Positions 3,030 through 17,051 of a stretch of DNA of 64,000 bases are shown here, piece after piece. Below the pieces are notes generated by a model, which worked only from the letters and a program-made list of their open reading frames with translations, searched no databases and was not told the DNA's origin. Where the stretch lies: IMG/VR virus record IMGVR_UViG_3300025530_000002; one strand, given 5' to 3'. Each line of letters opens with the position of its first letter. Position 1 is the first letter of the stretch. A program made the translations under genes and the position numbers. Source of the stretch: a virus.

Positions 3030-3111
3030 ATCGTCGCGGCCTACTCCTCGGTGTGCCCGGCGCGCACTCGTGCCTCTTTGATCTGCTCGGGGATTGGTTG
3101 CTCTGCGGTGC

Positions 3112-3534: not shown

Positions 3535-3550
3535 GTCTGCTCCTCAAAGA

Positions 3551-5184: not shown

Positions 5185-5186
5185 GT

Positions 5187-5384: not shown

Positions 5385-5652
5385 TCTTCGCCGCTCCGTT
5401 GTCGACGCCGATCTGGAAAGGCGTCTTGATCGGCAGGTCTTTGATCGCCTCGTATATGTGCGTCGCGGTCTCCATGTCGCCGCACACCAGAAAGAAAGGG
5501 ATGTCGAAGCAGTGCCATTTGCCGGGCTGAATGTTCGACGCGACAGCCTGCTGCCGCGGCTTCATGTACTCGACAAGCTCAGGCGGAAAAGTCACGCCTG
5601 CGCGGCGCTGGATGTCCTCGACACTCAGGTTTCCAAGATAGATGCAGCTCAC
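5377..5652 (-). CDS. hypothetical protein
   Basis: 91 aa, GTG start with AGGAGG 8 nt upstream. Balanced composition. Confidence 0.7.
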   Translation of the reverse strand: MSCIYLGNLSVEDIQRRAGVTFPPELVEYMKPRQQAVASNIQPGKWHCFDIPFFLVCGDMETATHIYEAIKDLPIKTPFQIGVDNGAAKSG

Positions 5653-5676
5653 CCTTCATCCCTCCTAAACGTGTTT

Positions 5677-5717
5677 AAAAAACCTCCTCGTCCCCAGGGG
5701 AGAAGAGACGAGGAGGA
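5677..5717 (-). terminator. rho-independent terminator
   Basis: On the minus strand: CCTCCTCGTC (loop) GACGAGGAGG followed by TTTTTT. The 10-bp stem is at 5683-5692 / 5708-5717 and the T-run at 5677-5682. Confidence 0.6.
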
Positions 5718-5765
5718 CCCTTTCTCCCGGGCTGGGGGTGCGCCCGGGACCACTGGGCCAGTGGA

Positions 5766-6095
5766 TCAGTTGGCCTGGCGAATGATACGCGCGGGCGCCA
5801 TCGCCTTGGCGACGATGTCGCGCGCTGCGGCCTCGATCTCGACGAGCGACGGCATGTCGTCGTCCCTGCCGAAAGCTCGGCCGATCCAGATGCCCAGCGG
5901 CTCGGCCACCTCATACGCCCAGACGCCCGGCCATTCGCCCTGTATTTCCTCGTACAGGCGGGCCAGCACTCGCGCGGTATCTTCCAACACCAACGCACGT
6001 TCAACAGACAGCGCCGTGGCGCGGCCAGTCTCGGCTGCCCCTTGCGTCCAACCACACACCAGTAGGGCGAAGTCTGCGGGGTCATAATCGGTCAT
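5766..6095 (-). CDS. hypothetical protein
   Basis: 109-aa ORF (MTDYDPADFALL...) with a GGAGA RBS. Confidence 0.7.
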   Translation of the reverse strand: MTDYDPADFALLVCGWTQGAAETGRATALSVERALVLEDTARVLARLYEEIQGEWPGVWAYEVAEPLGIWIGRAFGRDDDMPSLVEIEAAARDIVAKAMAPARIIRQAN

Positions 6096-6116
6096 GTTGG
6101 ATCTCCTCTGGATCGG

Positions 6117-6398
6117 TCAGGCGCCGTGCGCGAGGGCCCCGGCCACCAGCAAGGCTTCTGCGAACCTGTAGTAGCGTCGGGCCTCCGTGAGCGTCCTGAA
6201 GGTCTCCCAGAAGCGCCTGACCTTCTTCTCGTGGTCGTACGCCCGCACGTGGTAGACGCTATGCCGATACAACAGCGTGACTTGGACGGAGCCGTAATAC
6301 TTCTCCTCCATGTACCCGCAGGCCAAGGCGTACGGGGTGAGCCACCCGTCTTTCGTGTAGAACCTCGGGTGCGTCAGATGGCGCGGATCAACCTTCAT
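6117..6398 (-). CDS. hypothetical protein
   Basis: 93-aa ORF, Y/H/R-rich but non-repetitive. Confidence 0.7.
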   Translation of the reverse strand: MKVDPRHLTHPRFYTKDGWLTPYALACGYMEEKYYGSVQVTLLYRHSVYHVRAYDHEKKVRRFWETFRTLTEARRYYRFAEALLVAGALAHGA

Positions 6399-6401
6399 GG
6401 T

Positions 6402-7307
6402 TCAGTAGTGCTCCGCTTCGGCTCGGGTGATGTAAAAGTGGATGCCCGACGCGCACTCCTGGCGCCAGTCGTCCTCGAACCGGTCCGCCACGACGCGCTC
6501 GCCTACGCGGTATGTGGTCTTGCCGTCGTGCAGACTGATGCCGACCTCACCGCCGATGACCTCAAGCACGTCCGCGAACTCGGCCCGGCACTTGCGCCCG
6601 AACGCGTGGGACCGCTTCGCGTCAGCAGGAATGCGCAGCTTGACGAGCACGCCATCCTGGCACTTCTTCCATCCGATCAGATCACCGTCTGGAAGGATTC
6701 GGGTCCTGGCAAAGGCCAGTTCGGTAAGATCGACTTTGGCCAGGTGTGCTTCGGACAGGTCCGCGCCGATGAGGTCCGCATTGTCCAGGCGCGCTCCGGT
6801 CAGGTCCGCATTGCGTAGGACTGCGCCGGACAGCCTCGCGCGAGACAGGTTTGCGCCGCGCAGATCCGCGTGAGGCAGGTCTGCGCCGCGCAGGTTCGCA
6901 TCAAACAGGCGTGCGTCACGCAGGTCTGCGTAGGGCAGACTCGCTCCGACCAAAACTGCGTAAGACAGGTTTGCGCCGTACAAGTTCGCGCGCATCAGAG
7001 ACGCGCGGGGCAGGTACGCGCCGTGCAGGCTTGCGTAAGACAGGTTCGCATTGTCCAGAATTGCGCGAGACAGGTTTGCGCCGCACAGGTCTGCGTCTAC
7101 CAGGTTCGCGCCGTCCAGGTTCGCGTGGGACAGGTTCGCGCTGCACAGGTATGCTTCGGCCAGAGCCTCGCCATTCGGGTCTACGTTGTACGCGCATTGG
7201 ACTGCGTACCCGAGCTGCTCGCCGTAGCTTTTCCTGGCGATCTCTGCAGGCAGTTCACACTCGAACTGGACTTTGCCGTTCCATCGATTCATGATTGCGA
7301 ATTTCAT
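6402..7307 (-). CDS. pentapeptide-repeat protein with a globular C-terminal domain (DUF5758-like)
   Basis: 301 aa. About 30 consecutive A(D/N)LxX pentapeptides (ANLSHANLDGANLVDADLCGANLSRA...). C-terminus ...GWKKC...GIHFYITRAEAEHY resembles the domain often fused to phage pentapeptide proteins. Confidence 0.9.
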   Translation of the reverse strand: MKFAIMNRWNGKVQFECELPAEIARKSYGEQLGYAVQCAYNVDPNGEALAEAYLCSANLSHANLDGANLVDADLCGANLSRAILDNANLSYASLHGAYLPRASLMRANLYGANLSYAVLVGASLPYADLRDARLFDANLRGADLPHADLRGANLSRARLSGAVLRNADLTGARLDNADLIGADLSEAHLAKVDLTELAFARTRILPDGDLIGWKKCQDGVLVKLRIPADAKRSHAFGRKCRAEFADVLEVIGGEVGISLHDGKTTYRVGERVVADRFEDDWRQECASGIHFYITRAEAEHY

Positions 7308-7322
7308 GGCCTGACCTTTTGC

Positions 7323-7661
7323 TTACGGGATGATCTCCAGGCGCCAACCTGTGCAGCACGCCCGCAGCTGCTCATACACCTCGTGCGACACGTTGATGCA
7401 CCCATCGGTGACGGGCGGGCGCTTCGTTCGCTGCAGCAGCTGTTCACGCGCAGGGCTGGGCGGACGATGAATGGCGAACACGCCGCCTCTGCCATCGCGG
7501 GCGAACTCCAGCACATCGCCCCCGTACTGAGGCGCAGACACCTCCAGACGGCGGAGCTGAAACGCGCCGTGCGGTGTATCAGGTCCGACGAGCGCCGGGT
7601 GGCACATGCCGGCAAAGCACAGTAGAGCTTCGCTGAGTAGGACGTGGATCGTCGTGCTCAT
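7323..7661 (-). CDS. small secreted protein with an L,D-transpeptidase (YkuD/Tlde1-like) motif
   Basis: Internal ATG 7659-7661. Signal-like N-terminus MSTTIHVLLSEALLCFAGMC. FAIH...TDGCINVSHEVYEQL resembles the H...(S/T)xGC(I/V) catalytic motif. The start is uncertain. Confidence 0.55.
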   Translation of the reverse strand: MSTTIHVLLSEALLCFAGMCHPALVGPDTPHGAFQLRRLEVSAPQYGGDVLEFARDGRGGVFAIHRPPSPAREQLLQRTKRPPVTDGCINVSHEVYEQLRACCTGWRLEIIP

Positions 7662-7778
7662 GCGGGGCTTCCAGATAGGTGGTGGGCGGCGCCCTGCTGC
7701 TCGGGGCAGGCATCTGGGGAGAGACGCAGCAGGACGCCGCTTTGGCGTCTCACGACGCGACGGAGCCACCCCTCCGCG

Positions 7779-8753
7779 TTAACCTCGAATGTCCAGCTCC
7801 GGAGCGGACTGCAGCGGCAGCTCGCACTCCTGCAGCTGGATGCGCAGGATGGTGCGCTGCACCGAGCTACCCGAGCTGGCGCCGGCCTGGCCCCAGTCGC
7901 CGCCGGTCTTGCCGCCGCCCAGGCCCAGCGCACGGCTGGCAGCCACGCCGTTGACCGAGGCGAAGGTGACCACCTGGTGGCCGAACACGTGGGTCACGCC
8001 CTGCGGGTCGGTCCAGTACCGGTACGGCTCATCGGCCGGCACCAGCTCATCGTCCACGCCCAGGTCGATGGTCGAGCGCTTGACCAGGCCGACATAGGTA
8101 CCAGTGACCCGCTCCTGGCGCTTGGCCTGACGGGGGCCGCACACGCCGCGGTCCACCACGAGGGTCGGACCGGCCACCAGGGCCGGCGCGGCGGTCTGGA
8201 TCGTGGGCAGGTACAGCGCCTGCGCCTCGTAGTGGGTCGAGCTGCGATCGGACGCATCGACCGCCACCTGGCTGTTGCCGGCGTTGCTGGTGCTGGCGTC
8301 CGCGTGCCCGCCGGCGCTCACCGACGAGCTGGTGGTGTCACCGATCGACTGGCCCTGCGTCGCAGCCGCCCCGGAGACGCTGGCCGAGTTGCCGGAGTCG
8401 TTGATGCCCTGCGACTGGCCCTGCTTGGCCGCAGCACCGGAGACACTGGCCGAGTTGCCGGAGTCGTTGATGCCCTGCGACTGGCCCTGCGCCTGGCCCT
8501 GCTTGGCCGAGGCATCGCCGCCGGTGGCGTAGCCGACGCCCAGACCGAGGCCGGCACCGATCGCACCGGCCGAGGCGTTGGCGTTGTTGTCGCCGCCGCT
8601 CGGCGGGGCCGGCTCTTCCTGCGCCGGAGGCGGGTTGCAGTTCGGCCACTTGCCGCCGAACTCGCACTTGTTGGTGTTGCCTGCCACCGCCGGCAGGGCC
8701 ATGCCCACACCGATCAGCAGCGCCATCAGCTGCTTGTTGAAGTTCAGAGTCAT
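7779..8753 (-). CDS. secreted protein with a G/S/A/Q-rich repeat region
   Basis: 324 aa. Signal peptide MTLNFNKQLMALLIGVGMALPAVAG. Duplicated KQGQSQGINDSGNSASVSGAAA. Globular C-terminal half. Confidence 0.75.
   Translation of the reverse strand: MTLNFNKQLMALLIGVGMALPAVAGNTNKCEFGGKWPNCNPPPAQEEPAPPSGGDNNANASAGAIGAGLGLGVGYATGGDASAKQGQAQGQSQGINDSGNSASVSGAAAKQGQSQGINDSGNSASVSGAAATQGQSIGDTTSSSVSAGGHADASTSNAGNSQVAVDASDRSSTHYEAQALYLPTIQTAAPALVAGPTLVVDRGVCGPRQAKRQERVTGTYVGLVKRSTIDLGVDDELVPADEPYRYWTDPQGVTHVFGHQVVTFASVNGVAASRALGLGGGKTGGDWGQAGASSGSSVQRTILRIQLQECELPLQSAPELDIRG
8371..8502. repeat. tandem duplication (66-nt period) inside the secreted-protein gene
   Basis: The 54-nt cores at 8371-8424 and 8437-8490 differ at one position. 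Confidence 0.85.
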
Positions 8754-8776
8754 TGCTGTTTATCTCCCAGGGATGG

Positions 8777-8817
8777 AAAAAACAACGGACCGCGCCCCCC
8801 TGTGAAAGCGCGGTCCG
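8777..8817 (-). terminator. rho-independent terminator
   Basis: Minus strand: CGGACCGCGC (loop) GCGCGGTCCG followed by TTGTTTTTT. Stem at 8786-8795 / 8808-8817. Confidence 0.65.
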
Positions 8818-8840
8818 CCGAGAAAACCTGTGGAACGTGC

Positions 8841-9206
8841 TCAGTTGAGCTTGTCTTTGTCCTGCGTCTTCTGCAGCTGCGCAAGCAGCGCGCTCTGGTC
8901 GACGTAGGCGTAACCGATCAGCATGTTGGCCAGTGCATCGAGGAGGTTGTAGACCGCCTTCGCATCGGCGAACTCGATCGTGAGCTTCACATCGCCAGAA
9001 GGCAGCGGGAGCGTGACCTCAAGGATGGGCGCCAGCTTGTCCGGCTCGTAGGTGTTGATGGTCGCGCCCGACTGGAACTTGCTCGCGCCCGTGATGACCA
9101 GGTAACCGTCGGAGTCGACGTGTCGGGGTTCGCATGTGGCGCCCTTCATCACCTTGTCGATGAGTTCGCGCAGGCGCTCGCGCATGTCGTCAGAATCGTT
9201 GCTCAT
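8841..9206 (-). CDS. hypothetical protein
   Basis: 121-aa ORF. ATGA overlap with the primase-helicase stop. Confidence 0.7.
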   Translation of the reverse strand: MSNDSDDMRERLRELIDKVMKGATCEPRHVDSDGYLVITGASKFQSGATINTYEPDKLAPILEVTLPLPSGDVKLTIEFADAKAVYNLLDALANMLIGYAYVDQSALLAQLQKTQDKDKLN

Positions 9207-11644
9207 TGCTTGGCTCCAAATTTGACCACGTTGTCTCTACGTGCCTCGGACAACTGTTCGACCAGCTCTTTGAACTCATCGTCCGGTGCTGTCCACGGGC
9301 CCATCTTGAACCCGTATACGGTGCGCCCAGCGCGACGGCTGTAGTGCGGCGCCGGATCGGCGAAGTCGTAGCGGCGTAGCATCTTGCGGAAGGCCGCCTG
9401 GCTCTCGACCGCCTTGGGGTCCTGCATGACCACCCGGAACAGCACGTACAGGTCGTTGTACCCAGCCACGGTGAGCGAGTTGTCCAGCATGCCGCGCAGC
9501 AGATCGTCGTACTCGGAGATAGGCAGGATGCCGCCCATGCCGACCTTGATCTGGGCGGCTGTGGGGCGCGCGGCGAGGAAGAAGTTGGTATCGCCCTGGC
9601 GAATGGCCATTGCGATGGCGTCGGGCATGCCGTGAGTTGCCTCGAACAGCTTCTTCTTGGCTTCGTTCTCCAGCGGGTTGTGCAGCCACTCTTCGTTGAC
9701 GATCAGGCTGCCCAGCAGCTTGGCCAGTTCAGGCAGCTCCAGGCCCTGCTGGATCACCGACACTTCGTGCGGCGTGGGCAGGAACCGTTCTTCCTGACGC
9801 GGGGCTACGTTCCAACGACGGTCACCGGGACTGAGCAACAACGGACGACGAACGTTGGACGCCACGATGAAGTTGGCCGTGTTCGGGACCGACTCTTCGA
9901 CCCGGTACTTCTGGTTGATGATGATCTTCGGCTCGGTGATCCAGTTACGCAGCCGCGACATCACTTCGACGGGGTCCATCGTCTTGGACATGTTGGCCTC
10001 GTCGATCATCACCATCAGCTTGCCTTCCAGCAGGCTGTTGAAGTTGCCTGCCAGGTCTTTCATCATGACCTGGACGCAATGGTCACGACCGAACAGCGGC
10101 TGCAGCACGTGCTCGAAGAGCATGCCTTTACCGGTGCCTTCGGTGCCGTGCAGCAGCCAAGCCGTGCCGGGCTTCTTGCGCGTCTGGAAGATGTACGCCA
10201 CCCAGTTCAGAAAGCGCCGGATCGAGTCCTTGTCGCCTGCGAACACGCTCATCATCAGCTTGCCCAGCACCGGGCAGTTCTGTCCCAGCACGTTCAGACA
10301 TTCGGACGGGTCGAGCGTTCGCGCGATGCCGCTGAACTCCTTCATGAACTCGGTCCGTGCGAACAGGTTGATCACGGGGTAACCCTCTTCGTAACGGATG
10401 TCAGACGTGACGTCGTAGATCAGGTCGTAGTGCGGCAGGGTCGGTTTGGCGATGGCGCCCATCTGGGCCAGCCAGGCGTAGGCCGCTTCGGTGGTCGATT
10501 TGTCCACACGCAGCCGGTCGCTGACCCGATCGTAGGTGCCGATGTAGACGTTCGAGCCTCGGTTGGTCGCATAGAACGCCAGCACCTCCGTGCTCTCCGA
10601 CAGCGACGACAGCGCGCGCTGTGCCCGCGGCGCGGCTGCGACCAGCTTCTCGTACAGCTTGGGCGCCACCAGATTGGTGTGCATGAAGGGCTCGCCCTTG
10701 AAGTTGCCGATCACGTTCGGCCGCTTCAGGTCGATGTAGTACGCCATCGAGTCACCGCCGTTCACGTTGAACCGCAGGTGCCCCGACGGCGAGACCCGGA
10801 TGTCCGAGATGACGATCTCACCCGCGCCGCCCAGGTCCGTGTAGAACTCCTGCCCGCCGATCACGCGTGTCTCCAGCTGCAGCGCGGGCAAGCCCAACTC
10901 ATCGCGCAGCTTGTTGACGTGCTCTCGCAGCACCGTGGAGTCCACTTTGGTGAAGTGTGGGATGGTCAGAGCCCGCACGTCCCCCGGGTAGAATCGCACC
11001 GCCTCGCTGAGCGGTGGAGCAAAGCCGACACAACGAGGCGGTGCGATGTAGATCAACTTGGCCGGTGAACTGACCGAAGTATCCAGTGGGTAGGACAACG
11101 CGCGCTGTGAGTCGGTCAGCCGGATCTCGTCACGTAGCGCAGGCTGCGTCCAATTCAGGTACAGCAGCCAGTCACGCAGTACTTCGGTCGAGACCGGCTG
11201 GGTCAGCTTCATGAATATATGTGCCGACAGCTTCGTCGCATGTGGATGGAAGCAGCTGGCCGAGAGCTGGATGACCATGTCCACGTCGTGGGTGATCGGC
11301 GGCAGGTACTTCTCCACCGCCTCCAACGCCCCTTCGAACGTCGGCGGACAGTCGACCTTGTCGAAGTCGAAGCAGATCCACTCGTGATCGGCCGTCATCA
11401 CGGTACGCCCTGCGCGCGACTCATCCACGAGCGGCGCGTCAAGCTCGCCCTTCAACAGACACCAGCCTCGACGACCGTAGTGGTCCACGGCCCGGGCGAA
11501 CGCGCGCATGTCCTGAGCGTCCACCGCCTCCGAGGTCATCTTCGAGACCATCGGATAACTGGTGACGGTGTACTCGCCGGTCCTGGGGGAAAAAGCGATG
11601 GTCTTCGTCAGCGGGATGCTGGCCGACAAGAACGTGAGGAGCAT
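9203..11644 (-). CDS. bifunctional primase-polymerase (AEP) / SF3 helicase (D5/P4-type, DUF5906-like)
   Basis: 813 aa. AEP-like motifs ICFDFDK, SAHIFMK and YPLDTSV. Walker A LLHGTEGTGKGMLF. Walker B LMVMIDEA. Confidence 0.9.
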   Translation of the reverse strand: MLLTFLSASIPLTKTIAFSPRTGEYTVTSYPMVSKMTSEAVDAQDMRAFARAVDHYGRRGWCLLKGELDAPLVDESRAGRTVMTADHEWICFDFDKVDCPPTFEGALEAVEKYLPPITHDVDMVIQLSASCFHPHATKLSAHIFMKLTQPVSTEVLRDWLLYLNWTQPALRDEIRLTDSQRALSYPLDTSVSSPAKLIYIAPPRCVGFAPPLSEAVRFYPGDVRALTIPHFTKVDSTVLREHVNKLRDELGLPALQLETRVIGGQEFYTDLGGAGEIVISDIRVSPSGHLRFNVNGGDSMAYYIDLKRPNVIGNFKGEPFMHTNLVAPKLYEKLVAAAPRAQRALSSLSESTEVLAFYATNRGSNVYIGTYDRVSDRLRVDKSTTEAAYAWLAQMGAIAKPTLPHYDLIYDVTSDIRYEEGYPVINLFARTEFMKEFSGIARTLDPSECLNVLGQNCPVLGKLMMSVFAGDKDSIRRFLNWVAYIFQTRKKPGTAWLLHGTEGTGKGMLFEHVLQPLFGRDHCVQVMMKDLAGNFNSLLEGKLMVMIDEANMSKTMDPVEVMSRLRNWITEPKIIINQKYRVEESVPNTANFIVASNVRRPLLLSPGDRRWNVAPRQEERFLPTPHEVSVIQQGLELPELAKLLGSLIVNEEWLHNPLENEAKKKLFEATHGMPDAIAMAIRQGDTNFFLAARPTAAQIKVGMGGILPISEYDDLLRGMLDNSLTVAGYNDLYVLFRVVMQDPKAVESQAAFRKMLRRYDFADPAPHYSRRAGRTVYGFKMGPWTAPDDEFKELVEQLSEARRDNVVKFGAKQ

Positions 11645-11746
11645 ACTGACCCTGATAACGTGGGTCCGCCATCGGCGGGGATGCGACCGCTGCTGATGCT
11701 ATGCCCAAGCGACGGGAGCGTCAAGACTACGCCAAAAGTCCCCTGG

Positions 11747-11926
11747 TCAGGTGCCGTACCTGCACCAGTATCCGATCAGCAGGAGACTCACACCGGCCAG
11801 ATACAGCCCGGCGATGCCGAGCATCTTCTTCAGCGCGGTGTTGCGTCGTGGCGGTCGTCCTGTGCAGTACGTGATCGAGTCGTAGACCGCACGGGCCAGC
11901 ATCCGTTCTGCGAGCTTCTCGTTCAT
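11747..11926 (-). CDS. small membrane protein (59 aa)
   Basis: Hand-translated as MNEKLAERMLARAVYDSITYCTGRPPRRNTALKKMLGIAGLYLAGVSLLLIGYWCRYGT. ATGA overlap with the upstream stop. One residue below the track cutoff. Confidence 0.45.
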   Translation of the reverse strand: MNEKLAERMLARAVYDSITYCTGRPPRRNTALKKMLGIAGLYLAGVSLLLIGYWCRYGT

Positions 11927-12186
11927 GCTGATCTCCTGCTCTTGAGGTTGTTCCAGGTCAGCGGCTGGTCTGCTTCACGCAGGCTCTTCAGTCGTCCTTG
12001 GATCGTGGACAGGGACAGCCCCAGGCGCTCAGCGATCTGGCGCGAAGTCAGGTACTCTCCTTCGACGTGGTAGGTGTATTTGCGCGCGTACGCGCGTCCA
12101 CCACGGGGGCTGTACCAACCACTGAGGCGAGGATCGCCGGGCTCCAGACGCAGCCCTTGTCCATTGCGACGTGGAGTTTCAGTCAC
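11923..12186 (-). CDS. HTH DNA-binding protein
   Basis: 87 aa, GTG start in a GTGACTGA overlap. LTSRQIAERLGLSLSTIQGRLKSL looks like a helix-turn-helix. Confidence 0.7.
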   Translation of the reverse strand: MTETPRRNGQGLRLEPGDPRLSGWYSPRGGRAYARKYTYHVEGEYLTSRQIAERLGLSLSTIQGRLKSLREADQPLTWNNLKSRRSA

Positions 12187-12304
12187 GACGACGATCCAAC
12201 TTCCTGCACAGGAGCATCACGGACAGCACGAGGATGCCCAGGAGGTAGATCCCCAGCACCACCGCGACGATGCACAACAGGCTATGCGTCAAGGTCTGCC
12301 ACAC
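12179..12304 (-). CDS. possible 41-aa single-TM peptide
   Basis: VWQTLTHSLLCIVAVVLGIYLLGILVLSVMLLCRKLDRRRD. Its stop lies in the GTGACTGA junction with the next gene. The start codon is uncertain. Confidence 0.3.
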   Translation of the reverse strand: MWQTLTHSLLCIVAVVLGIYLLGILVLSVMLLCRKLDRRRD

Positions 12305-12551
12305 GGTAGAACTCCCGCTTGAAGAACCAACGCGGCACGACGAGCAGGGGAATGTTGCTCGTGTTGTGCGCCGCTTGCAGCATGATGTTGCCATCACGCG
12401 CGCCGACCACGCGCCAGGCCAGAGGCGGGTTGTGTATGGACCATCGGTACGCCCAGTAATGCCGCAGAATACGACGCGTGTCGTACCAGGTGTAGACGTG
12501 CCAGGCGCCAAGGGCGACGAGCGTAGCGAAAAGCAGGGTCAGCCACATCAT
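12282..12551 (-). CDS. small membrane protein
   Basis: 89 aa. N-terminal TM segment MMWLTLLFATLVALGAWHVY. ATGA overlap with the upstream stop. Confidence 0.6.
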   Translation of the reverse strand: MMWLTLLFATLVALGAWHVYTWYDTRRILRHYWAYRWSIHNPPLAWRVVGARDGNIMLQAAHNTSNIPLLVVPRWFFKREFYRVADLDA

Positions 12552-13135
12552 TCTTGCTGCTCCATGTAACGACGGCGGATGTAGTTGAAGTACCGGTACA
12601 TCGTGGCCCGGGATATCGGGTTCACGTCACCGTAGAGCTGGTTGTAGGCCGCTTCGAATCGCCGCAGGGTCAATTCCTGCTGCTCCAACAATGGGAGCAG
12701 GCGCTCGTACAACGTGTTGAGCATTTCGTACGTCACCCGACGGGGGCGGCCGGGGCGGCTGGGCGGAGTCATGCTGCGCAAGAGCCTGGCGACAGTGTGA
12801 TCCGCCACAGGGTACCCGAGCAGCTTCTCCACTTCGTAGCGCACCTCGACGGTGTGCAAGGGACGAGCGGCGGTCGAAGGACGTCGACGAAGTGCCTGGA
12901 TCGCCGATTGAAGGGCTTCGGGCGGCACTGGCCCGCCACTGCCGGGGGCGCCTCGACGTCCTCGGTGCAGCTGCAGCTGGTCCTGCAGGCCCAGGGCCTG
13001 TACTGCCTTGCGCGCCAGATAGCGCGTGACACCGGCGTGCCGCGCCAATGCGCCCAGGGTGCGGTGGCCTTGGGCGTAGGCGGCTTCTACGGCTTTGATA
13101 GCTGAATGCAGCTTGACTTTCTTGATGCGAGGCAT
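12548..13135 (-). CDS. DNA-binding protein with two HTH-like segments; first gene after the non-coding hub
   Basis: 195 aa. RTLGALARHAGVTRYLARKAV and ISRATMYRYFNYIRR resemble HTH motifs. Confidence 0.8.
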   Translation of the reverse strand: MPRIKKVKLHSAIKAVEAAYAQGHRTLGALARHAGVTRYLARKAVQALGLQDQLQLHRGRRGAPGSGGPVPPEALQSAIQALRRRPSTAARPLHTVEVRYEVEKLLGYPVADHTVARLLRSMTPPSRPGRPRRVTYEMLNTLYERLLPLLEQQELTLRRFEAAYNQLYGDVNPISRATMYRYFNYIRRRYMEQQE

Positions 13136-13182
13136 TGACGGATTGGGTCAGGTTGTGGCTGGAGGGACGAGCATAGCGCGGC

Positions 13183-13212
13183 GTTATTGAGTGTTTCAAT
13201 ACTTGGTGTCAA
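13183..13212 (-). promoter_or_regulatory. candidate sigma70-type promoter for the 12548..13135 operon
   Basis: Minus strand TTGACA (13207-13212), an 18-nt spacer, then AATAAC (13183-13188). About 45 nt upstream of the ATG. Confidence 0.3.
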
Positions 13213-13315
13213 CGGTGTTGCCATGGGCGGGAATTGGTGACTCTTATGTCGACCGAAACCCTTGGCGCACAAGGCTTTGGGGCTTGTTCAAAACTAAATG
13301 TAAAACTTATGTTAA

Positions 13316-13341
13316 GGGGTACCTGGTGGGGGATGTACCCC
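13316..13341. other. inverted repeat GGGGTAC-N12-GTACCCC
   Basis: 7-bp arms at 13316-13322 and 13335-13341. Confidence 0.6.
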
Positions 13342-13352
13342 GGGGTGCGGAC

Positions 13353-13380
13353 GACGGGCGACGGGCGACGGATGTCGTAA
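13353..13380. repeat. short heptamer tandem array
   Basis: GACGGGC GACGGGC GACGGAT GTCGTAA. Confidence 0.7.
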
Positions 13381-13640
13381 GTAGTTGATAGTTCGTCGTG
13401 CGCAAGGAATTCGAATTTCTTCGTGCAGTCTCAAAAGTAAGGGCCAGAAATTCGTTTGAGGGTGCTCTCTCCCTAACTCCTTATTTCTTATACTCTTTCT
13501 TCTTCAGTTCTTAGACTTAGGAAGAAAAAGTATGGGGAAAGAAGCGTTATTAAATAGTGGCGTAGTAAATAACAGCGCCTGGGAAGAAAGGTTCTGGAAA
13601 ATTACTTTTAACATTTGGCGGGACCTGAACGCCGGCTGAC
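13381..13640. other. AT-rich non-coding island
   Basis: Hand count gives 71 G+C in 180 nt over 13441-13620 (~39%). Flanking coding DNA is clearly above 60%. Confidence 0.8.
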
Positions 13641-13682
13641 TTCTTGGGCGTCCGCCTGGTCCCCTTCCTGGCCTCGCTGCCC

Positions 13683-13850
13683 GTCGCACTTCGCCTTGGT
13701 CACGACGCACGTCGCACTGGTCACGTCGTACGTCGCACTCATCACTGGTCACGACGCACTTCGCACGACGCACGACGCACGCCGCACGACGCACTGGTCA
13801 CGTCGCACTCATCACCACGTACGGCGCACGACGCACGTCGTACGTCGCGC
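13683..13850. repeat. 24-unit degenerate heptanucleotide tandem array, consensus G(A/T)CGCAC
   Basis: Parses without gaps into 24 7-mers: GTCGCAC x4, GACGCAC x6, TGGTCAC x4, TCATCAC x2, GTCGTAC x2, plus six single variants. GCAC occurs 13 times, always at offsets that are multiples of 7. Confidence 0.9.
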
Positions 13851-13883
13851 TTTTCATCGCCTGCCACGTGTCCCGTTGCGACG

Positions 13884-13913
13884 AAAAAAGGGACCGCCCT
13901 CGCGGACGGTCCC
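13884..13913 (-). terminator. rho-independent terminator after the 335-aa gene
   Basis: Minus strand: GGGACCG (10-nt loop) CGGTCCC followed by TTTTTT. Confidence 0.7.
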
Positions 13914-13927
13914 TCGAAGTACATCAA

Positions 13928-14935
13928 TCAGCGCTGGACGCGGTGCACACGCGGCTGCTTGAGCGAAGCCGCGACGATCGCAGCCGCAGCCGCCTGCGCC
14001 TTGGCCAGCGCGCGCAGCCGCTCCTCACGCCGGCGCTGCTGCGACGCACGACGTGCGACTTCCGCAGCATCCAGTGCCGTCATGGCGTCGGTGATCGGCG
14101 TGAACGTGCCGTCCCAGTTCTGCGTGTTTGCGTACGGCATCTGGCGCTCGCTGGGCCAGCCCACCGACTCCAGCTGGTACTGGAACAGCAGCCGCACGTC
14201 CTCCAGCGCGCGCACGACCGCTTCGGTCAGCTCGTCCGAGCCGTACTTCTCGCGCATGTACTGCAGCTCGATCTCACGCCGCAGCTCGTAGCCCTGCTCG
14301 TCGCGCATGAAGTCATCGAACTCCTTCTCGCGCGTGTCCTCGCAGCTGAGCACCTGGTCGTCCACGACCCGGCCCAGCGCCTCTTCGATGTACGTGGAGG
14401 ACACGTAGCGCTCGAAGAACGCATGCACCGTGGCTTCGTCGCTGTACGCGTCCATGCCCTCGGCCGCGCGGTAGTCCAGGTTGGCGAAGAACACGCAGTT
14501 CTTCAGGACGCGGTAGAGGACGCGGTACAGCTGACCGGGCACGTCGAGCGTCGGGGTGGCGCTCACGACCGCCTGCACGAGGGTCGCCAGGTCGTTGTCG
14601 CACGCCCGCACCAGCGCGGCCAGCTGCTGCGCTTCCTCGCGCGCGTCGGGGTCCTGCAGCCCGCGCCCGTCGTTGCGGGAGAGCGAGTCCAGCGCGCGAT
14701 CAATCAGGGACCACGAGCCCGGCGCCAGCTCCAGCGTCTGCAGCGCCTCGCTGGCCCGCCGCATGGTCTCCTCTTCGGTCAGCGGCGTCTCCAGGTCGTC
14801 GAACGAGGTGTCCGCGGCCTGCGCGGTCGGCTCGGGCGTGACCTCGCGGTACTCGTCCGTCAGCTCACGGCCGATGGCGGTGTTGGTGTCGATGCCCAGC
14901 GACTTCTTGATGCGCTGCGTGATCGAGGTGTTCAT
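13928..14935 (-). CDS. hypothetical protein
   Basis: 335-aa acidic ORF with an AAGGAGA RBS. No motif recognised. Confidence 0.8.
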   Translation of the reverse strand: MNTSITQRIKKSLGIDTNTAIGRELTDEYREVTPEPTAQAADTSFDDLETPLTEEETMRRASEALQTLELAPGSWSLIDRALDSLSRNDGRGLQDPDAREEAQQLAALVRACDNDLATLVQAVVSATPTLDVPGQLYRVLYRVLKNCVFFANLDYRAAEGMDAYSDEATVHAFFERYVSSTYIEEALGRVVDDQVLSCEDTREKEFDDFMRDEQGYELRREIELQYMREKYGSDELTEAVVRALEDVRLLFQYQLESVGWPSERQMPYANTQNWDGTFTPITDAMTALDAAEVARRASQQRRREERLRALAKAQAAAAAIVAASLKQPRVHRVQR

Positions 14936-14954
14936 CTCTGTGTCTCCTTGTGTC

Positions 14955-14982
14955 GTTGAACGTTGAACGTTGAACGTTGTAC
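14955..14982. repeat. heptamer tandem repeat (GTTGAAC)x3 plus GTTGTAC in a 5' leader
   Basis: Four units, 20-47 nt upstream of the 14935 start. Produces AACGTT palindromes every 7 nt. Confidence 0.85.
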
Positions 14983-15039
14983 TGCGTCACTTGGCCGGGG
15001 GCACCTCGTCCGGCCTGCCCTTCCTGGTTGTACTACCGC

Positions 15040-15270
15040 TCACGTGAGGCCACGCTTGCGGTTGATCTCGCGGGCGCGGTGCATGATCTCCTGCACGTCC
15101 TGCACCAGCGCGGCGTGCTGCTCCGGCGAGAGGTCATCCATCTCGCGCAGGCGTCGCTGCAGCACCGCCAGCCCGTCTGCGTAGAGCCGGGCGTCGTACT
15201 CCAGCCGCACTTCACGTGCGAACTGCCGCGCGTAATGCCCGAGCTTCTTAATCCGTCGCACGTCGAACAT
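15040..15270 (-). CDS. hypothetical protein
   Basis: 76-aa helical ORF. Confidence 0.7.
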   Translation of the reverse strand: MFDVRRIKKLGHYARQFAREVRLEYDARLYADGLAVLQRRLREMDDLSPEQHAALVQDVQEIMHRAREINRKRGLT

Positions 15271-15445
15271 TGGTCAGAACCTCCATCTGTTCGGGACTGA
15301 ATCCGGCGATCTCGCCCAACATCTGCGGCAACTGGGAGAGGTCACCGGTGAAACTGGCCTGCGGCAAGTGCAGCTCGTACACGCACTGGCCGCGGTCGTC
15401 CGTGATCACCACATCAAGTTGCTTCGTCGCAAAGTGCACACGCAT
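15248..15445 (-). CDS. hypothetical protein (65 aa)
   Basis: Internal ATG 15443-15445 (MRVHFATKQLDVVITDD...) with AGGAG 8 nt upstream. The longer track ORF would run across the upstream membrane gene. Confidence 0.6.
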   Translation of the reverse strand: MRVHFATKQLDVVITDDRGQCVYELHLPQASFTGDLSQLPQMLGEIAGFSPEQMEVLTNVRRATD

Positions 15446-15480
15446 GTTCGTGCTCCTATGGTCAAGGACACCCTCATCGC

Positions 15481-15509
15481 TGCGCCCGAGGAGCGCAGCG
15501 ACGAGGGCC
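15481..15509. repeat. 29-nt intergenic element, copy A
   Basis: TGCGCCCGAGGAGCGCAGCGACGAGGGCC, identical to 17023-17051. In this copy it sits within a 9-bp-stem hairpin, TCGCTGCGC/GCGCAGCGA. Confidence 0.85.
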
Positions 15510-15521
15510 TTCAGCGCGCGC

Positions 15522-15827
15522 TCAACGGGCGACACGCGTGAGCACGCCGGCGTATCGCACCCAGCGCCAGTCGCTGAACGAGAAGCGCTCGTAGCCGAAC
15601 AGCCAGCGGTAGACACGGAACGACAGCGAGAACAGGATGCCGGCAGCCTCTGCCTGCAGCAGGCCGAGGGTCGAGGTGCCGAGGAACACCCACAAGATGG
15701 TGCCGTGGATGAGGAAGTCCAGCACCATGGCGTAGCCCATCAGGCGGCGCACGCTGCGCGGGGAGAAGTGCGAGCACAACAAGGCCATGGAACCGAACGT
15801 GATGATGGCGGCGAGAATCCAGCTCAT
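15522..15827 (-). CDS. membrane protein (about 3 TM segments)
   Basis: 101 aa. MSWILAAIITFGSMALLCSHF..., VLDFLIHGTILWVFLGTSTLGLL. Confidence 0.75.
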   Translation of the reverse strand: MSWILAAIITFGSMALLCSHFSPRSVRRLMGYAMVLDFLIHGTILWVFLGTSTLGLLQAEAAGILFSLSFRVYRWLFGYERFSFSDWRWVRYAGVLTRVAR

Positions 15828-15967
15828 TCCAGATACTCCGGATAGTCAGACAACCACGTCGTCACAACGAACGCGGCAACGAAGGCGAGTGCAGCACCCA
15901 CTGCCCCCCAGCGAGGGAGGGCAGCGAGCGCAGCCAGGGCAGCGATGATCAGCGCAGCGTACGGCAT
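15824..15967 (-). CDS. possible 47-aa two-TM peptide
   Basis: Hand-translated as MPYAALIIAALAALAALPRWGAVGAALAFVAAFVVTTWLSDYPEYLE. ATGA overlap with the next gene. Confidence 0.4.
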   Translation of the reverse strand: MPYAALIIAALAALAALPRWGAVGAALAFVAAFVVTTWLSDYPEYLE

Positions 15968-16218
15968 GTCGAACTCCACTTCGGGTGGAAGATGCGCTTC
16001 CAGAACACGGGGCGGATGAAGCCGGCGAGTTCGATATGCTCGGCGTGCTGAAGCGCGCGGTCATACGACGAGAACACGTGGTCGAGCTGGAGCCCGAGCT
16101 TCGGACTCCAGCGCACACGCAGCACGTAGCCCGTCGCGTCAGCGCGAGGCACGACGTGCGGCGTACGACCATGCAGGAACCACCGCGTGTGGTCATCGAG
16201 GAGAGGCACTTGACGCAT
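15949..16218 (-). CDS. hypothetical protein
   Basis: 89-aa ORF. The RBS AAGGAG spans the upstream TAA. Confidence 0.7.
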   Translation of the reverse strand: MRQVPLLDDHTRWFLHGRTPHVVPRADATGYVLRVRWSPKLGLQLDHVFSSYDRALQHAEHIELAGFIRPVFWKRIFHPKWSSTCRTLR

Positions 16219-16221
16219 GGG

Positions 16222-16413
16222 TTACTCCTTCAGCAGGTCGTCGAGGCGGACAGGGCGGGGCTCGGGGGCCGCGCACAAGGCATCTATCTCGCGCCAGTAC
16301 TCCTTGAGGTACTCGTCGCAGTACGCCCGGCCAGCAGGCGACAGCTCGTGGTACCTGGCCTCGCCATTCATCCACGCGTTGAACTCCACCAGCACGACAT
16401 CGATCTCGGTCAC
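16222..16413 (-). CDS. hypothetical protein
   Basis: 63 aa, GTG start, GGAGA RBS. Confidence 0.65.
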   Translation of the reverse strand: MTEIDVVLVEFNAWMNGEARYHELSPAGRAYCDEYLKEYWREIDALCAAPEPRPVRLDDLLKE

Positions 16414-16433
16414 GACACTAATCTCCAGTCAAC

Positions 16434-16449
16434 GTAGCGACATCGCTAC
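16434..16449. promoter_or_regulatory. 16-bp palindrome GTAGCGA-CA-TCGCTAC (operator-like)
   Basis: Perfect 7-bp arms, 21 nt upstream of the 16413 start. Confidence 0.5.
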
Positions 16450-16463
16450 ACACCTATCGATGA

Positions 16464-16488
16464 GCCCTTCGCGCGAAGCGCGAAGGGC
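16464..16488. other. strong GC hairpin (11-bp stem)
   Basis: GCCCTTCGCGC-GAA-GCGCGAAGGGC. No clear U-run follows on either strand. Confidence 0.6.
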
Positions 16489-16517
16489 CTGGTGTTTGAG
16501 GGACAGGAAGGCGGGGC

Positions 16518-16721
16518 TCACGCCCGCACCTCCGGCTTGACGACGCGCACGTACCAGTAGCGCTTGGACCTGCCGAGCTTGAACTTGGCCACGAGCCCAC
16601 ACTGCGCGCAGCCGTGCGCAAACTTCGCAGCATCGGACTGCGAGCCGACACGCACGATGCGCAGGTTCTTCTCACGACGCACGACGGTGTGCGGGATGAG
16701 GGACAGGAACGCGTAACTCAC
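16518..16721 (-). CDS. small basic protein
   Basis: Internal GTG 16719-16721 (VSYAFLSLIPHTVVRREKN...) with GGAGGTG 5 nt upstream. 67 aa. Confidence 0.6.
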   Translation of the reverse strand: MSYAFLSLIPHTVVRREKNLRIVRVGSQSDAAKFAHGCAQCGLVAKFKLGRSKRYWYVRVVKPEVRA

Positions 16722-16746
16722 GACAGCACCTCCAAGGTCGACGGGC

Positions 16747-16776
16747 AAAAAGAAAAGCCCCGGCAAGCGCCGGGGC
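16747..16776 (-). terminator. rho-independent terminator
   Basis: Minus strand: GCCCCGGC-GCTT-GCCGGGGC followed by TTTTCTTTTT. Confidence 0.75.
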
Positions 16777-16974: not shown

Positions 16975-17022
16975 GTTCGCAACTCCTGGTTGAGCCAGCG
17001 GAATTACTGGCATACGCATAGA

Positions 17023-17051
17023 TGCGCCCGAGGAGCGCAGCGACGAGGGCC
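17023..17051. repeat. 29-nt intergenic element, copy B
   Basis: Identical to 15481-15509. Lies in the divergent control region. Confidence 0.85.

What the first reader, a model, noticed from the sequence alone, without database searches (positions are those of the whole stretch)
13136..13927. 790-bp non-coding hub: phased 24-unit heptamer array, ~39% GC island and a second heptamer array between a terminator and a TTGACA promoter
Region 13683-13850 parses without gaps into 24 consecutive 7-mers. In order they are GTCGCAC TTCGCCT TGGTCAC GACGCAC GTCGCAC TGGTCAC GTCGTAC GTCGCAC TCATCAC TGGTCAC GACGCAC TTCGCAC GACGCAC GACGCAC GCCGCAC GACGCAC TGGTCAC GTCGCAC TCATCAC CACGTAC GGCGCAC GACGCAC GTCGTAC GTCGCGC. 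GCAC occurs 13 times, and every spacing between copies is a multiple of 7. The TGGTCAC subunits are spaced 21, 28 and 49 nt apart. A 7-nt period cannot be coding, so the long ORFs the track draws across this region are artefacts. A shorter array (GACGGGC GACGGGC GACGGAT GTCGTAA, 13353-13380) lies on the other side of an AT-rich island, where I counted 71 G+C in 180 nt over 13441-13620. A 7-bp inverted repeat sits at 13316-13341. The locus begins right after a good terminator (13884-13913). It ends at a TTGACA-N18-AATAAC promoter candidate that drives an HTH protein and, further on, the PrimPol-helicase. I see three readings of this layout. (a) It is a replication origin, with iterons plus an unwinding element. 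(b) It is the physical genome terminus or concatemer-processing region; as I recall, T7 carries arrays of short (~7-bp) repeats next to its terminal repetition. (c) It is a binding or titration array for the adjacent HTH protein. I know of no described heptamer array of this length and regularity in a phage of this gene content.
Basis: partly seen in the sequence, partly recalled or inferred. Interest (0 to 1): 0.78.

Follow-up and report, generated by a model that had tools for sequence, protein, structure and literature searches.

The report
Hypervariable heptamer array at putative origin
A virulent-looking 64-kb phage carries, between its early genes and its replication genes, a non-coding region in which inverted 7-base repeats flank the genome's only AT-rich island; this looks like a replication origin, and in this lineage one repeat has grown into a tandem array whose copy number (about 11, 24 or 29) differs between otherwise 96-98% identical phages.

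Summary
Positions 13683-13850 hold 24 gap-free heptamers. Lag-7 identity is 0.60 against 0.28±0.05 in simulations, the highest value in the window.

Nine independent assemblies carry the identical region, so it is not an assembly artefact.

In near relatives the flanks are 96-98% identical and have no indels, yet the array spans 99, 190 or 225 nt between fixed anchors. All three lengths are 1 mod 7. The array is therefore a non-coding heptamer VNTR.

Six more distant lineages lack the array. They keep a single TGGTGACGT box after the terminator, an AT-rich island, and 2-4 inverted CGTCGNN heptads 309-328 nt further on.

The window's short array is inverted relative to the main array, not direct. 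The AT island is the least stable duplex in the 64 kb (z=5.8).

Best reading (about 0.45): an iteron-plus-unwinding-element origin served by the PrimPol/SF3 helicase, resembling SaPI origins, with the 24-unit array a lineage-specific amplification of the distal iteron. An operator or titration array, or a functionless minisatellite, remains possible. A genome terminus is unlikely. Nothing functional was tested.

The parts
13928..14935 (-). Last gene of the early leftward operon. It encodes a 335-aa all-helical protein of unknown function and always lies directly upstream of the non-coding region in relatives.
   Evidence: GC3 is 0.92. There is no Pfam, PHROG or NCBIfam hit. The AF2 model has pLDDT 86 and no PDB fold match. 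Synteny holds in L021, L024, L038, L039 and L041.
13888..13915 (-). Intrinsic terminator of the early operon.
   Evidence: 12-bp stem with 8 GC pairs, a 4-nt loop and a T-run. A terminator sits at the same place in all relatives.
13683..13850 (-). Main heptamer array of 24 contiguous units. On the gene strand the units read CGWCGTG, ACCAGTG and ATGAGTG. It is a hypervariable VNTR and points towards the AT island.
   Evidence: establish the array. Alleles span 99, 190 and 225 nt between identical flanks. The array is absent from the distant lineages.
13414..13613 (.). AT-rich island and candidate DNA unwinding element.
   Evidence: It is the only strongly AT-rich stretch in the window, with a minimum of 31% GC in 80 nt. 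It is the least stable 200-bp duplex of the window, z 5.8. AT-rich islands are kept in all relatives. No conserved ORF lies in it and there is no Rfam hit.
13474..13549 (.). Imperfect 35-nt-arm palindrome at the centre of the AT island.
   Evidence: repeat I1, 71% complementary. The DNA fold gives -9.6 kcal/mol, z -2.5.
13351..13380 (+). Short proximal heptamer array, CGACGGG x2-3 then degenerate. It is inverted relative to the main array and conserved as (CGTCGNN)2-4 in relatives.
   Evidence: with the alignment.
13316..13341 (.). 7-bp inverted repeat GGGGTAC/GTACCCC.
   Evidence: Read. It folds no better than shuffles. Relatives have a different hairpin at the same place, CCGTAC..GTACGG in L021.
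13286..13294 (-). GTTTTGAAC box with the palindromic core GTTYTGAAC. In relatives this box occurs twice per intergenic region.
   Evidence: Read. Its function was not tested.
13170..13212 (-). Two overlapping sigma-70-like promoter candidates for the HTH/replication operon.
   Evidence: One search gives TTGAAA-N18-TATGCT. TTGACA-N18-AATAAC was read. L021 and L039 have TTGACG-N17-TTTAAT at the homologous place.
12548..13135 (-). 195-aa protein with two HTH domains (HTH_32; resembles the N-terminus of IS630 transposases / a paired domain). It is the first gene after the region.
   Evidence: Pfam; NCBIfam; AF2 and Foldseek. Orthologues follow the region in all lineages but are only 23-33% identical.
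9203..11644 (-). 813-aa PrimPol-type primase fused to an SF3 (P4/D5/NrS-1-type) helicase. It is the candidate initiator and lies 1.5 kb downstream in the same operon.
   Evidence: DUF5906 and VapE; primase PHROGs; NrS-1 helicase domain 6K9C, E 8e-29; P4-family primase_Cterm, sub-threshold.

Best explanation
The 790-nt region is the conserved non-coding control region between the early operon and the replication operon of a roughly 64.3-kb virulent-type phage.

Its conserved core has three elements:
- a heptamer box G(T/C)GACGT just after the early terminator;
- about 310-330 nt that include the genome's only AT-rich, easily melted island;
- 2-4 heptamers of the same family in inverted orientation.

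I read this core as the phage replication origin. The heptamers would be iterons that position an initiator on both sides of the unwinding element. The most likely initiator is the PrimPol/SF3 helicase encoded 1.5 kb downstream, possibly helped by the adjacent HTH proteins. The helicase would load in both directions, as proposed for SaPI Rep helicases.

The 24-unit array is a lineage-specific tandem amplification of the distal iteron. It grows and shrinks in whole 7-nt units, and in 21- and 49-nt blocks, by slippage or unequal recombination, so near-identical phages carry about 11, 24 or 29 units. It is non-coding and is not needed for the core function. It may add initiator-binding capacity.

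Shown here: anatomy, periodicity, inverted orientation, hypervariability with the phase kept, absence of the array and conservation of the core in relatives, and lowest duplex stability.

Inferred: protein binding, the identity of the binder, and replication initiation at this site.
For: - Periodicity is far beyond chance and unique in the window.
- The region is identical in 9 independent assemblies.
- Alleles of 99, 190 and 225 nt, all 1 mod 7, lie between flanks that are 96-98% identical. The remaining 537 nt of the region has no indel.
- The short array is inverted relative to the main array, and both point at the AT island.
- In L021, L024, L038 and L039 there is one GGYGACG box, with inverted CGTCGNN x2-4 lying 309-328 nt further on. 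In the window, the distance from the end of the array to the short array is about 313 nt.
- The TGGTGACGT box is also present in L041 and L023.
- The commonest array unit, GCGACGT, differs by 1 nt from the conserved box GTGACGT and equals a proximal unit of L038.
- The AT island is the only strongly AT-rich stretch and the least stable duplex of the window, z 5.8.
- The operon downstream encodes a PrimPol/SF3 helicase related to the NrS-1 and P4 families.
- SaPI origins have 6-12 short iterons in two oppositely oriented sets around an AT-rich centre and are served by self-loading Rep helicases (PMC9371898).
- No conserved ORF, tRNA or Rfam family lies in the region.
Against: - No replication, binding or marker-frequency data exist.
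- GC skew gives no origin signal.
- No winged-helix or origin-binding domain was detectable in the helicase C-terminus.
- The region lies upstream of the operon, not directly after the helicase gene as in SaPIs.
- The distance between the iteron sets (about 310 nt) is much larger than in SaPIs.
- The array is dispensable in relatives and its units are heterogeneous (11 types among 24). This fits a neutral minisatellite as well as a functional pad.
- The same layout (binding sites upstream of a promoter whose first gene is an HTH protein) also fits a purely transcriptional control region.
Confidence: 0.45

Rival explanations
1. The region is a transcriptional control region. The heptamers are operators, or a titration pad, for a phage DNA-binding protein that times expression of the replication operon. 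Candidates are the 195-aa bipartite HTH protein, the 87-aa wHTH protein, or an early protein. The array would then buffer or sequester that regulator, in the way contiguous 7-bp heptads bind omega in pSM19035.
For: - An HTH gene is the first gene after the region in every lineage.
- Promoter candidates lie at the proximal end.
- Palindromic GTTYTGAAC boxes occur twice per region in relatives.
- Contiguous heptad arrays bound one dimer per heptad are an established device (PMC9499535).
Against: - The array lies 470-680 nt upstream of the promoter candidates and just downstream of a terminator.
- A control region does not need 560-830 nt or the genome's only AT island.
- HTH orthologues are only 23-33% identical while the boxes are conserved.
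- No RHH or ParA-type partner was found among the neighbouring genes.
Confidence: 0.25
2. The 24-unit array has no function of its own. It is a neutral minisatellite that arose by slippage from a short repeat next to a functional core (origin or control region) and drifts in length.
For: - The array is absent in all six more distant lineages, which keep the rest of the region.
- Length and unit order differ greatly between 96-98% identical genomes.
- The same genome holds a second small heptamer VNTR, (CAACGTT)n at 14954-14979, which differs by one unit between the same relatives.
- L030 contains one 8-nt unit, so the phase is not absolutely kept.
Against: - There is no indel in 168 nt despite about 40% divergence between units.
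- GTG is kept at 21-23 of 24 units.
- The units stay in the family of the conserved box.
- The end of the array keeps the ancestral distance of about 313 nt to the proximal heptads.
- Every allele retained at least 11 units.
Confidence: 0.2
3. The region is the physical genome terminus, a pac site or a concatemer-processing site. The arrays would play a role like the short repeats next to the T7 terminal repetition.
For: - Many short-read contigs end at or inside the region (L029, L032, L034, L035, L037, L022, L023).
- It is the longest non-coding stretch seen in the window.
- T7 does carry repeat arrays next to its terminal repeat.
Against: - JGI contig L016 is circular with a 67-nt overlap, and several long contigs read straight through the region.
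- The contig ends are equally explained by array polymorphism or repeated k-mers.
- TerL is nearest to phiA008, KPP25 and Aaphi23/S1249-type terminases. To my knowledge Aaphi23 packages by headful.
- The likely small-terminase gene and TerL lie 8 kb away on the other strand.
- The T7 arrays are CCTAAAG motifs at a 12-13-nt period, not contiguous heptamers.
Confidence: 0.05
4. The region encodes a structured non-coding RNA, for example a primer or regulatory RNA from the AT island. The array would be part of that transcript.
For: - Long hairpins sit at the same place in the AT island of L021 and L039 (z -4.3 and -5.5), with weaker ones in L024 and L038. Their arm sequences differ and include G-T pairs in the gene orientation.
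Against: - There is no Rfam match.
- No promoter candidate lies upstream of the array or in the island.
- A strong terminator directly precedes the array.
- The window's own counterpart hairpin is weak (z -1.7).
- RNAalifold found no consensus structure.
Confidence: 0.05

Closest known systems
SaPI/PICI replication origins (Rep/Pri-Rep self-loading helicases)
   Same: Both have short iterons (5-6 nt in SaPIs, 7 nt here) in two sets of opposite orientation around an AT-rich centre. Iteron number varies between elements. Both are served by an element-encoded primase plus helicase (PMC9371898).
   Different: SaPI origins have 6-12 iterons, an AT region of roughly 80 bp, and lie immediately downstream of rep. 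Here one side has 11-29 contiguous units and the other 3. The two sets are about 310 nt apart. The region lies 1.5 kb upstream of the helicase gene. No C-terminal winged helix was detected.
Phage P4 ori/crr bound by the alpha primase-helicase (own knowledge; Ziegelin and Lanka 1995 and Yeo et al. 2002 appear in the reference list of PMC4234260)
   Same: A primase/SF3-type helicase fusion of the P4 family recognises short (8-bp) repeated boxes in a non-coding origin. The helicase here gives a sub-threshold P4-family primase_Cterm hit.
   Different: To my knowledge the P4 boxes are octamers (TGTTCACC), few in number, and not contiguous head-to-tail. No VNTR behaviour has been described for them.
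pSM19035 parS/operator heptads bound by omega (RHH ParB)
   Same: These are contiguous 7-bp repeats without gaps, 7-10 per site and in mixed orientation, with one protein dimer per heptad. At least 4 contiguous units are needed (PMC9499535). This is the best precedent for a gap-free heptamer binding array.
   Different: The omega heptads sit at promoters, work with a ParA ATPase and an RHH protein, and have the consensus WATCACW. No RHH or ParA gene was found near the array here, and the array is far from any promoter candidate.
AAV Rep-binding element, (GCTC)n, bound by the SF3 helicase Rep68/78 (PMC11780844 appeared; details from own knowledge)
   Same: An SF3-helicase initiator uses a gap-free tandem array of a very short unit as its landing pad next to the site that is melted.
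   Different: The AAV unit is 4 nt with about 4-5 copies, the virus is eukaryotic and single-stranded, and the origin-binding domain is of the HUH type.
T7 short-repeat arrays next to the terminal repetition
   Same: Arrays of a short motif lie in a non-coding region of a virulent phage.
   Different: Tested here: T7 positions 174-340 carry CCTAAAG motifs at a 12-13-nt period beside a 160-bp terminal repeat. They are not contiguous heptamers. No terminus is evident at the window's array.
pRN1 origin (ORF904 PrimPol/SF3 helicase) and the putative origins of BPP-1-type phages
   Same: The replication protein has the same type of architecture. The origin is a non-coding element with a stem-loop that is conserved in structure but not in sequence. 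Repeats plus a stem-loop have been proposed as origins in phages with such proteins (PMC4234260).
   Different: The pRN1 origin is a 100-nt stem-loop downstream of the gene and has no iteron array. The hairpins seen here are only suggestive.

Membership tests
Iteron-type replication origin (SaPI-like, SF3-helicase served) | Cluster of short repeated initiator-binding sites (iterons). | tested here: met
   There are 24 + 3 heptamers in the window. Relatives keep 1 + 2-4 units of the same family.
Iteron-type replication origin (SaPI-like, SF3-helicase served) | AT-rich, easily melted element between or next to the iterons. | tested here: met
   The region holds the only strongly AT-rich stretch of the window and its least stable 200 bp, z 5.8. 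An AT-rich island is kept in all relatives.
Iteron-type replication origin (SaPI-like, SF3-helicase served) | [quoted passage not shown] | tested here: met
   The pattern hits the short array on the + strand and the main array on the - strand. Four distant lineages show the same inverted arrangement.
Iteron-type replication origin (SaPI-like, SF3-helicase served) | Element-encoded initiator: a helicase carrying a sequence-specific origin-binding (winged-helix) domain. | tested here: inconclusive
   A PrimPol/SF3 helicase is present. No DNA-binding domain is detectable in its C-terminal 174 aa by Pfam. Its structure was not modelled.
Iteron-type replication origin (SaPI-like, SF3-helicase served) | Origin lies immediately downstream of the rep gene. 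| tested here: not met
   The region lies 1.5 kb upstream of the helicase gene, at the head of the operon.
Iteron-type replication origin (SaPI-like, SF3-helicase served) | Replication initiates here and the initiator binds the repeats. | not testable with these tools
   This needs marker-frequency sequencing, 2D gels, or EMSA and footprinting.
omega-type heptad operator/centromere (pSM19035) | At least 4 contiguous 7-bp repeats without gaps. | tested here: met
   24 contiguous units.
omega-type heptad operator/centromere (pSM19035) | Cognate RHH protein and ParA ATPase encoded alongside. | tested here: not met
   No RHH or ParA family was found among 20 neighbouring proteins or in the precomputed Pfam lists for the contigs. 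Small proteins without hits remain.
omega-type heptad operator/centromere (pSM19035) | The array overlaps or abuts the regulated promoter. | tested here: not met
   The nearest promoter candidate lies about 470 nt from the array.
T7-type repeat arrays at the terminal repetition | The array abuts a direct terminal repeat or physical end. | tested here: inconclusive
   One contig is circular and long contigs read through the region. The window contains no terminal repeat. Read-start data were not available.
T7-type repeat arrays at the terminal repetition | Heptamer motif separated by spacers, giving a 12-13-nt period. | tested here: not met
   T7 has period 13. The window has period 7 with no spacers.
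Protein-coding tandem repeat | Alleles differ by multiples of 3 nt and keep an open frame. | tested here: not met
   Alleles differ by 91 and 35 nt. Minus-strand frames carry stops. No family hit for the ORF drawn across the array.
Known RNA family (Rfam) | Match at or above the gathering score. | tested here: not met
   There are no tRNAs.

The most novel reading that the evidence does not exclude
The array is a functional, rapidly evolving 'origin VNTR'. It would be a gap-free pad of 11-29+ heptamer iterons whose copy number tunes how much initiator is captured at, or titrated away from, the origin. That would set replication timing or strength, or create incompatibility between co-infecting strains of a virulent phage. 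Expansion and contraction of the array would then be a fast evolutionary dial on phage replication. Such a dial has not been described for phage origins.
Probability: 0.15. Interest if true: 0.7.

Novelty: new variant of a known kind. Interest (0 to 1): 0.5.

Why it matters
Origins of virulent phages that replicate with PrimPol/SF3 helicases are almost uncharted. This locus offers a concrete candidate conserved across at least seven lineages: inverted heptamers roughly 310-330 nt apart around an AT island. It can be tested directly.

The heptamer array is also a clear case of a phage VNTR. It changes by whole units between genomes that are otherwise 96-98% identical. That makes it useful as a strain marker in metagenomes. 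It also explains why short-read assemblies of this phage break at this point. If the array is functional, it would be an example of copy-number tuning at an origin.

If the origin reading is wrong, the region is still a well-defined binding-site array that can be used to identify the DNA-binding protein that recognises it.

Tried and rejected
- **Known RNA families and tRNAs.** Rfam (evalue mode on 12000-15000, gathering mode on the whole window) and tRNA search found nothing real.
- **Similar DNA in deposited phages.** blastn of the region against 50,697 phage records gave no match.
- **Small ORFs in the region.** A 35-aa ORF at 13532-13639 (+) is kept only in near relatives and has no counterpart in distant lineages. 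It was rejected as a gene.
- **ORFs across the array.** They have no family hits and are frameshifted between alleles.
- **GC skew.** It gave no origin signal.
- **335-aa neighbour.** A good AF2 model (pLDDT 86) has no PDB fold match.
- **195-aa HTH protein.** The single-sequence model (pLDDT 71) gave only non-significant paired-domain, CENP-B and mariner-like matches. There was no PDB sequence match. The homologue search returned only its own cluster.
- **Helicase C-terminus.** No DNA-binding domain was found by Pfam.
- **Searches for more relatives.** Scans of viral contigs and genome contigs with proteins, an alignment and DNA patterns gave nothing beyond L001 and L002. The metagenome DNA pattern scan re-found only L024.
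- **Phage phiR18.** It has no comparable intergenic region near its primase gene.
- **Locus L001.** Its cluster of about 12 TGTAAC sites was first taken as support for iterons. A tyrosine integrase lies two genes further on, so these could be attP arm sites. This evidence was downgraded.
- **Literature.** Searches found no described contiguous heptamer array at a phage origin and no data on termini of KPP25-type phages.
Full report
**1. Context**

The window is 64.0 kb of a phage genome of about 64.28 kb with 65% GC. JGI contig L016 bridges the window's end back to its start and is circular with a 67-nt overlap.

Genes at 672-16766 run leftward, those at 17442-49451 rightward, and those at 49979-63023 leftward. 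The genome encodes:
- TerL, portal protein and major head protein;
- a 2205-aa protein with a weak N4-type virion RNA polymerase match;
- PolA, an SNF2 helicase, ArdA and an exonuclease;
- an 813-aa PrimPol/SF3 helicase.

The nearest cultured phages are KPP25, phiR18 and phiA008. Identity to them is only 28% for the primase-helicase and 40-43% for TerL. No integrase appears in the precomputed domain lists.

The finding lies between the last early gene (335 aa, 13928-14935) and the first gene of the replication operon (195-aa HTH protein, 12548-13135). Both are on the minus strand.

**2. The observation**

The 24 heptamers have no gap. On the + strand, positions 5-7 of the unit (CAC) are kept in 21, 22 and 23 of the 24 units, while positions 1-2 vary.

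| Measure | Value | Source |
|---|---|---|
| Lag-7 identity in the array | 0.60 | |
| Same, 5000 Markov-1 simulations | 0.28 +/- 0.047, maximum 0.43 | |
| Same, 161-nt stretches window-wide | 0.26 +/- 0.04 | |
| Lag-21 identity in the array | 0.69 | |

The array is the window maximum for lag-7 identity and the short array at 13348 is second. TRF also reports 21- and 49-nt periods. The array therefore has higher-order structure: three units equal two helical turns, and there are block duplications.

The region is not an assembly artefact. The 792-nt intergenic sequence is 100% identical in nine contigs from ENA, Logan and JGI assemblies of different samples.

**3. Near relatives: a heptamer VNTR**

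The 90%-identity cluster of the 335-aa protein contains other variants, and their contigs carry other array alleles. Lengths below are measured between the same anchors...GGGACACGTGGC on one side and GCCAGGRAGGGGACCAGG... on the other.

| Source | Length between anchors | Approximate units |
|---|---|---|
| Window | 190 nt | 24 |
| L026, L027 (complete); L028, L029 (contigs stop downstream of or within the array; same sequence as far as they go) | 99 nt | 11 |
| L030, L031, L033 | 225 nt | 29 |
| L036 | fourth allele, incomplete | not known |

All three complete lengths are 1 mod 7. Unit order differs throughout. L030 contains one 8-nt unit that is compensated elsewhere.

The other 537 nt of the region has no indel at all and is 96.3-96.5% identical. 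The flanking genes are 95.6-98.2% identical.

The array therefore turns over far faster than its surroundings, and in whole units. Because 91 and 35 are not multiples of 3, any ORF across the array is frameshifted between alleles. This proves that it is non-coding.

Many short-read contigs stop 37-123 nt after the 335-aa stop codon, which is at the edge of the array (L029, L032, L034, L035, L037). Array polymorphism or repeated k-mers within samples would produce this. It does not by itself indicate a physical end.

**4. Distant relatives: the array is lineage-specific, the core is conserved**

Homologues of the 335-aa protein at 50-62% identity lie on contigs with the same layout: gene, terminator, 560-635 nt of non-coding DNA, then an HTH_32 gene. 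This holds for L021, L024, L038, L039/L040 and L041/L042. L023 breaks off inside the region.

None of these has a heptamer array. All six have the 9-mer TGGTGACGT about 50-85 nt after the stop codon. They also have an AT-rich island. Four of them have (CGTCGNN)2-4 at an exact 7-nt period, 309-328 nt beyond the box and inverted relative to it.

In the window, the pattern CGWCGKGCGWCGKG hits the short array on the + strand and the main array on the - strand. The two arrays are therefore inverted and both point at the AT island. The end of the main array lies about 313 nt from the short array, which is the ancestral spacing.

The commonest unit read in the gene direction, GCGACGT, differs by one base from the conserved box GTGACGT. 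It is identical to a proximal unit of L038.

The simplest history is that an ancestral single distal box was amplified into 11-29+ units in the window's lineage.

Other blocks shared between lineages were seen but not tested:
- GTTYTGAAC, twice per region;
- CATAAGACGTTTTTA;
- CAAnnACTTAC just before the proximal heptads.

These are visible.

**5. The AT island**

Positions 13360-13647 are the only stretch of the window below 48% GC over more than about 120 nt, with a minimum of 31% in 80 nt.

By nearest-neighbour energies, 13414-13613 is the least stable 200 bp of the window (z 5.8). The next-best stretch scores 3.4.

The island contains a 76-nt imperfect palindrome at 13474-13549 (z -2.5).

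L021 and L039 have a strong hairpin at the corresponding place, GGGGAAA...TTTCCCC (z -4.3 and -5.5). L024 and L038 have weaker ones with different arm sequences. The window's counterpart is weak. RNAalifold found no consensus structure, so this remains a lead only.

There is no conserved ORF, no Rfam family, and no promoter candidate inside the island.

**6. Mechanism**

The anatomy is: short repeats in two oppositely oriented sets, around the most easily melted DNA of the genome, at the head of the operon that encodes a primase/SF3-helicase fusion. This is the layout of an iteron-type origin.

The closest described case is the SaPI origin. It has 6-12 penta- or hexanucleotide iterons, an AT-rich centre, and at least two iterons on each side pointing in opposite directions. 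Self-loading Rep helicases are thought to load one hexamer on each side (PMC9371898).

For the related architecture of pRN1 ORF904 (PrimPol plus SF3 helicase), a structure-conserved stem-loop origin has been shown genetically. Similar elements were proposed for phages that have such proteins (PMC4234260).

I therefore propose that the heptamers are iterons for the PrimPol-helicase or for an accessory HTH protein. In this model the island is the unwinding element, and the long array is an amplified and dispensable landing pad.

This is inference. The following points weaken it:
- I found no origin-binding domain in the helicase C-terminus.
- The region is upstream of the helicase gene rather than directly after it.
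- The two iteron sets are far apart.
- GC skew is uninformative.

**7. Rival explanations**

- **Operator or titration array for the HTH protein (0.25).** This is the main rival. Gap-free heptad arrays bound one dimer per heptad are known from pSM19035 omega (PMC9499535). Against it, the array is about 470 nt from the nearest promoter candidate. The HTH orthologues have diverged to 23-33% identity while the boxes stayed the same. No RHH or ParA partner was found.
- **Functionless minisatellite (0.2).** This is compatible with loss of the array in relatives and with a second small heptamer VNTR, (CAACGTT)n at 14954-14979, which also differs by one unit between the same relatives. Against it are the kept phase, the conserved GTG, the family resemblance to the box and the preserved spacing.
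- **Physical terminus or pac site (0.05).** Circular and read-through contigs argue against it. So do the TerL relatives and the position of the terminase genes. I checked the T7 arrays directly: they are CCTAAAG motifs at a 12-13-nt period next to the 160-bp terminal repeat, not contiguous heptamers.
- **Structured RNA (0.05).** It has only the hairpins in its favour.

**8. Novelty and verdict**

I found no described gap-free heptamer array of this length at a phage origin. The underlying design, short inverted iterons around an AT-rich element served by an element-encoded helicase, is known.

I classify the locus as a new variant of a known kind. The new aspects are the 7-nt gap-free unit, the very large and hypervariable copy number on one side only, and the phage group.

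Interest is 0.5. The function is untested, and the striking array is probably an accessory rather than the essential element.

Noticed in passing
window 14954-14979: A second heptamer VNTR. It reads (CGTTGAA)x3.7 on the + strand, which is (CAACGTT)n on the gene strand, directly upstream of the ribosome-binding site of the 335-aa gene. Near relatives L026, L030 and L036 have exactly one unit fewer. Distant relatives lack it.
   Followed up: partly
window ~14985-15031 (minus strand): The conserved motif ACAACYAGGAAGGGC is followed by a hairpin whose stem changes between lineages (GGCCGG/CCGGCC, TGCGG/CCGCA, CGCGG/CCGC) while the loop ACGAKGTGCCC is kept. It lies upstream of the 335-aa gene in the window, L024, L038 and L041. 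It is unique in the window. It could be a phage-specific promoter or an RNA element.
   Followed up: partly
window 15475-15509 and 17017-17051: A 35-nt repeat, 94% identical, forms a long GC-rich hairpin (CGCTGCGC, 7-nt loop, GCGCAGCG on the minus strand). One copy lies in the divergent early promoter region and the other inside the early operon. The 2205-aa virion protein has a weak N4 vRNAP match, so these could be hairpin-type early promoters.
   Followed up: no
window 1 and 63100-64000; 1288-1872: At least four independent contigs end exactly at window position 1, inside a 123-aa gene. Families of 55-105-nt repeats (76-85% identity) link 63.1-63.9 kb with 1.3-1.9 kb, probably from paralogous small genes. 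This is a likely recurrent assembly break point and not necessarily a physical end.
   Followed up: partly
window 13532-13639 (+): A 35-aa ORF with a plausible Shine-Dalgarno sequence lies inside the AT island. Gene callers annotated it in some contigs. Near relatives keep it with one substitution each, but more distant lineages have no counterpart.
   Followed up: yes
window 13928-14935 (-): The 335-aa early protein is conserved at 50-62% identity across lineages. It gives a confident all-helical model (pLDDT 86, pTM 0.75) with no match in the PDB and no family assignment. It may be a new fold.
   Followed up: partly
L001 6795-7036 and 7597-8613: In a distant relative (30% identity in the upstream gene) the syntenic AT-rich non-coding region holds about 12 TGTAAC/GTTACA sites, three of them at a 7-8-nt period, plus (TAC)x10. 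A tyrosine integrase gene lies two genes further on, so this may be an attP region rather than an origin.
   Followed up: partly
window 6817-7154 and 6402-7307 (-): 15/30/60-nt tandem repeats lie inside a 301-aa pentapeptide-repeat protein gene in the replication-side operon.
   Followed up: no
window 11923-12186 (-): An 87-aa winged-helix protein (HTH_24, with weak RepL and MarR-type hits) is encoded two genes upstream of the primase-helicase. It is another candidate binder of the heptamers.
   Followed up: no
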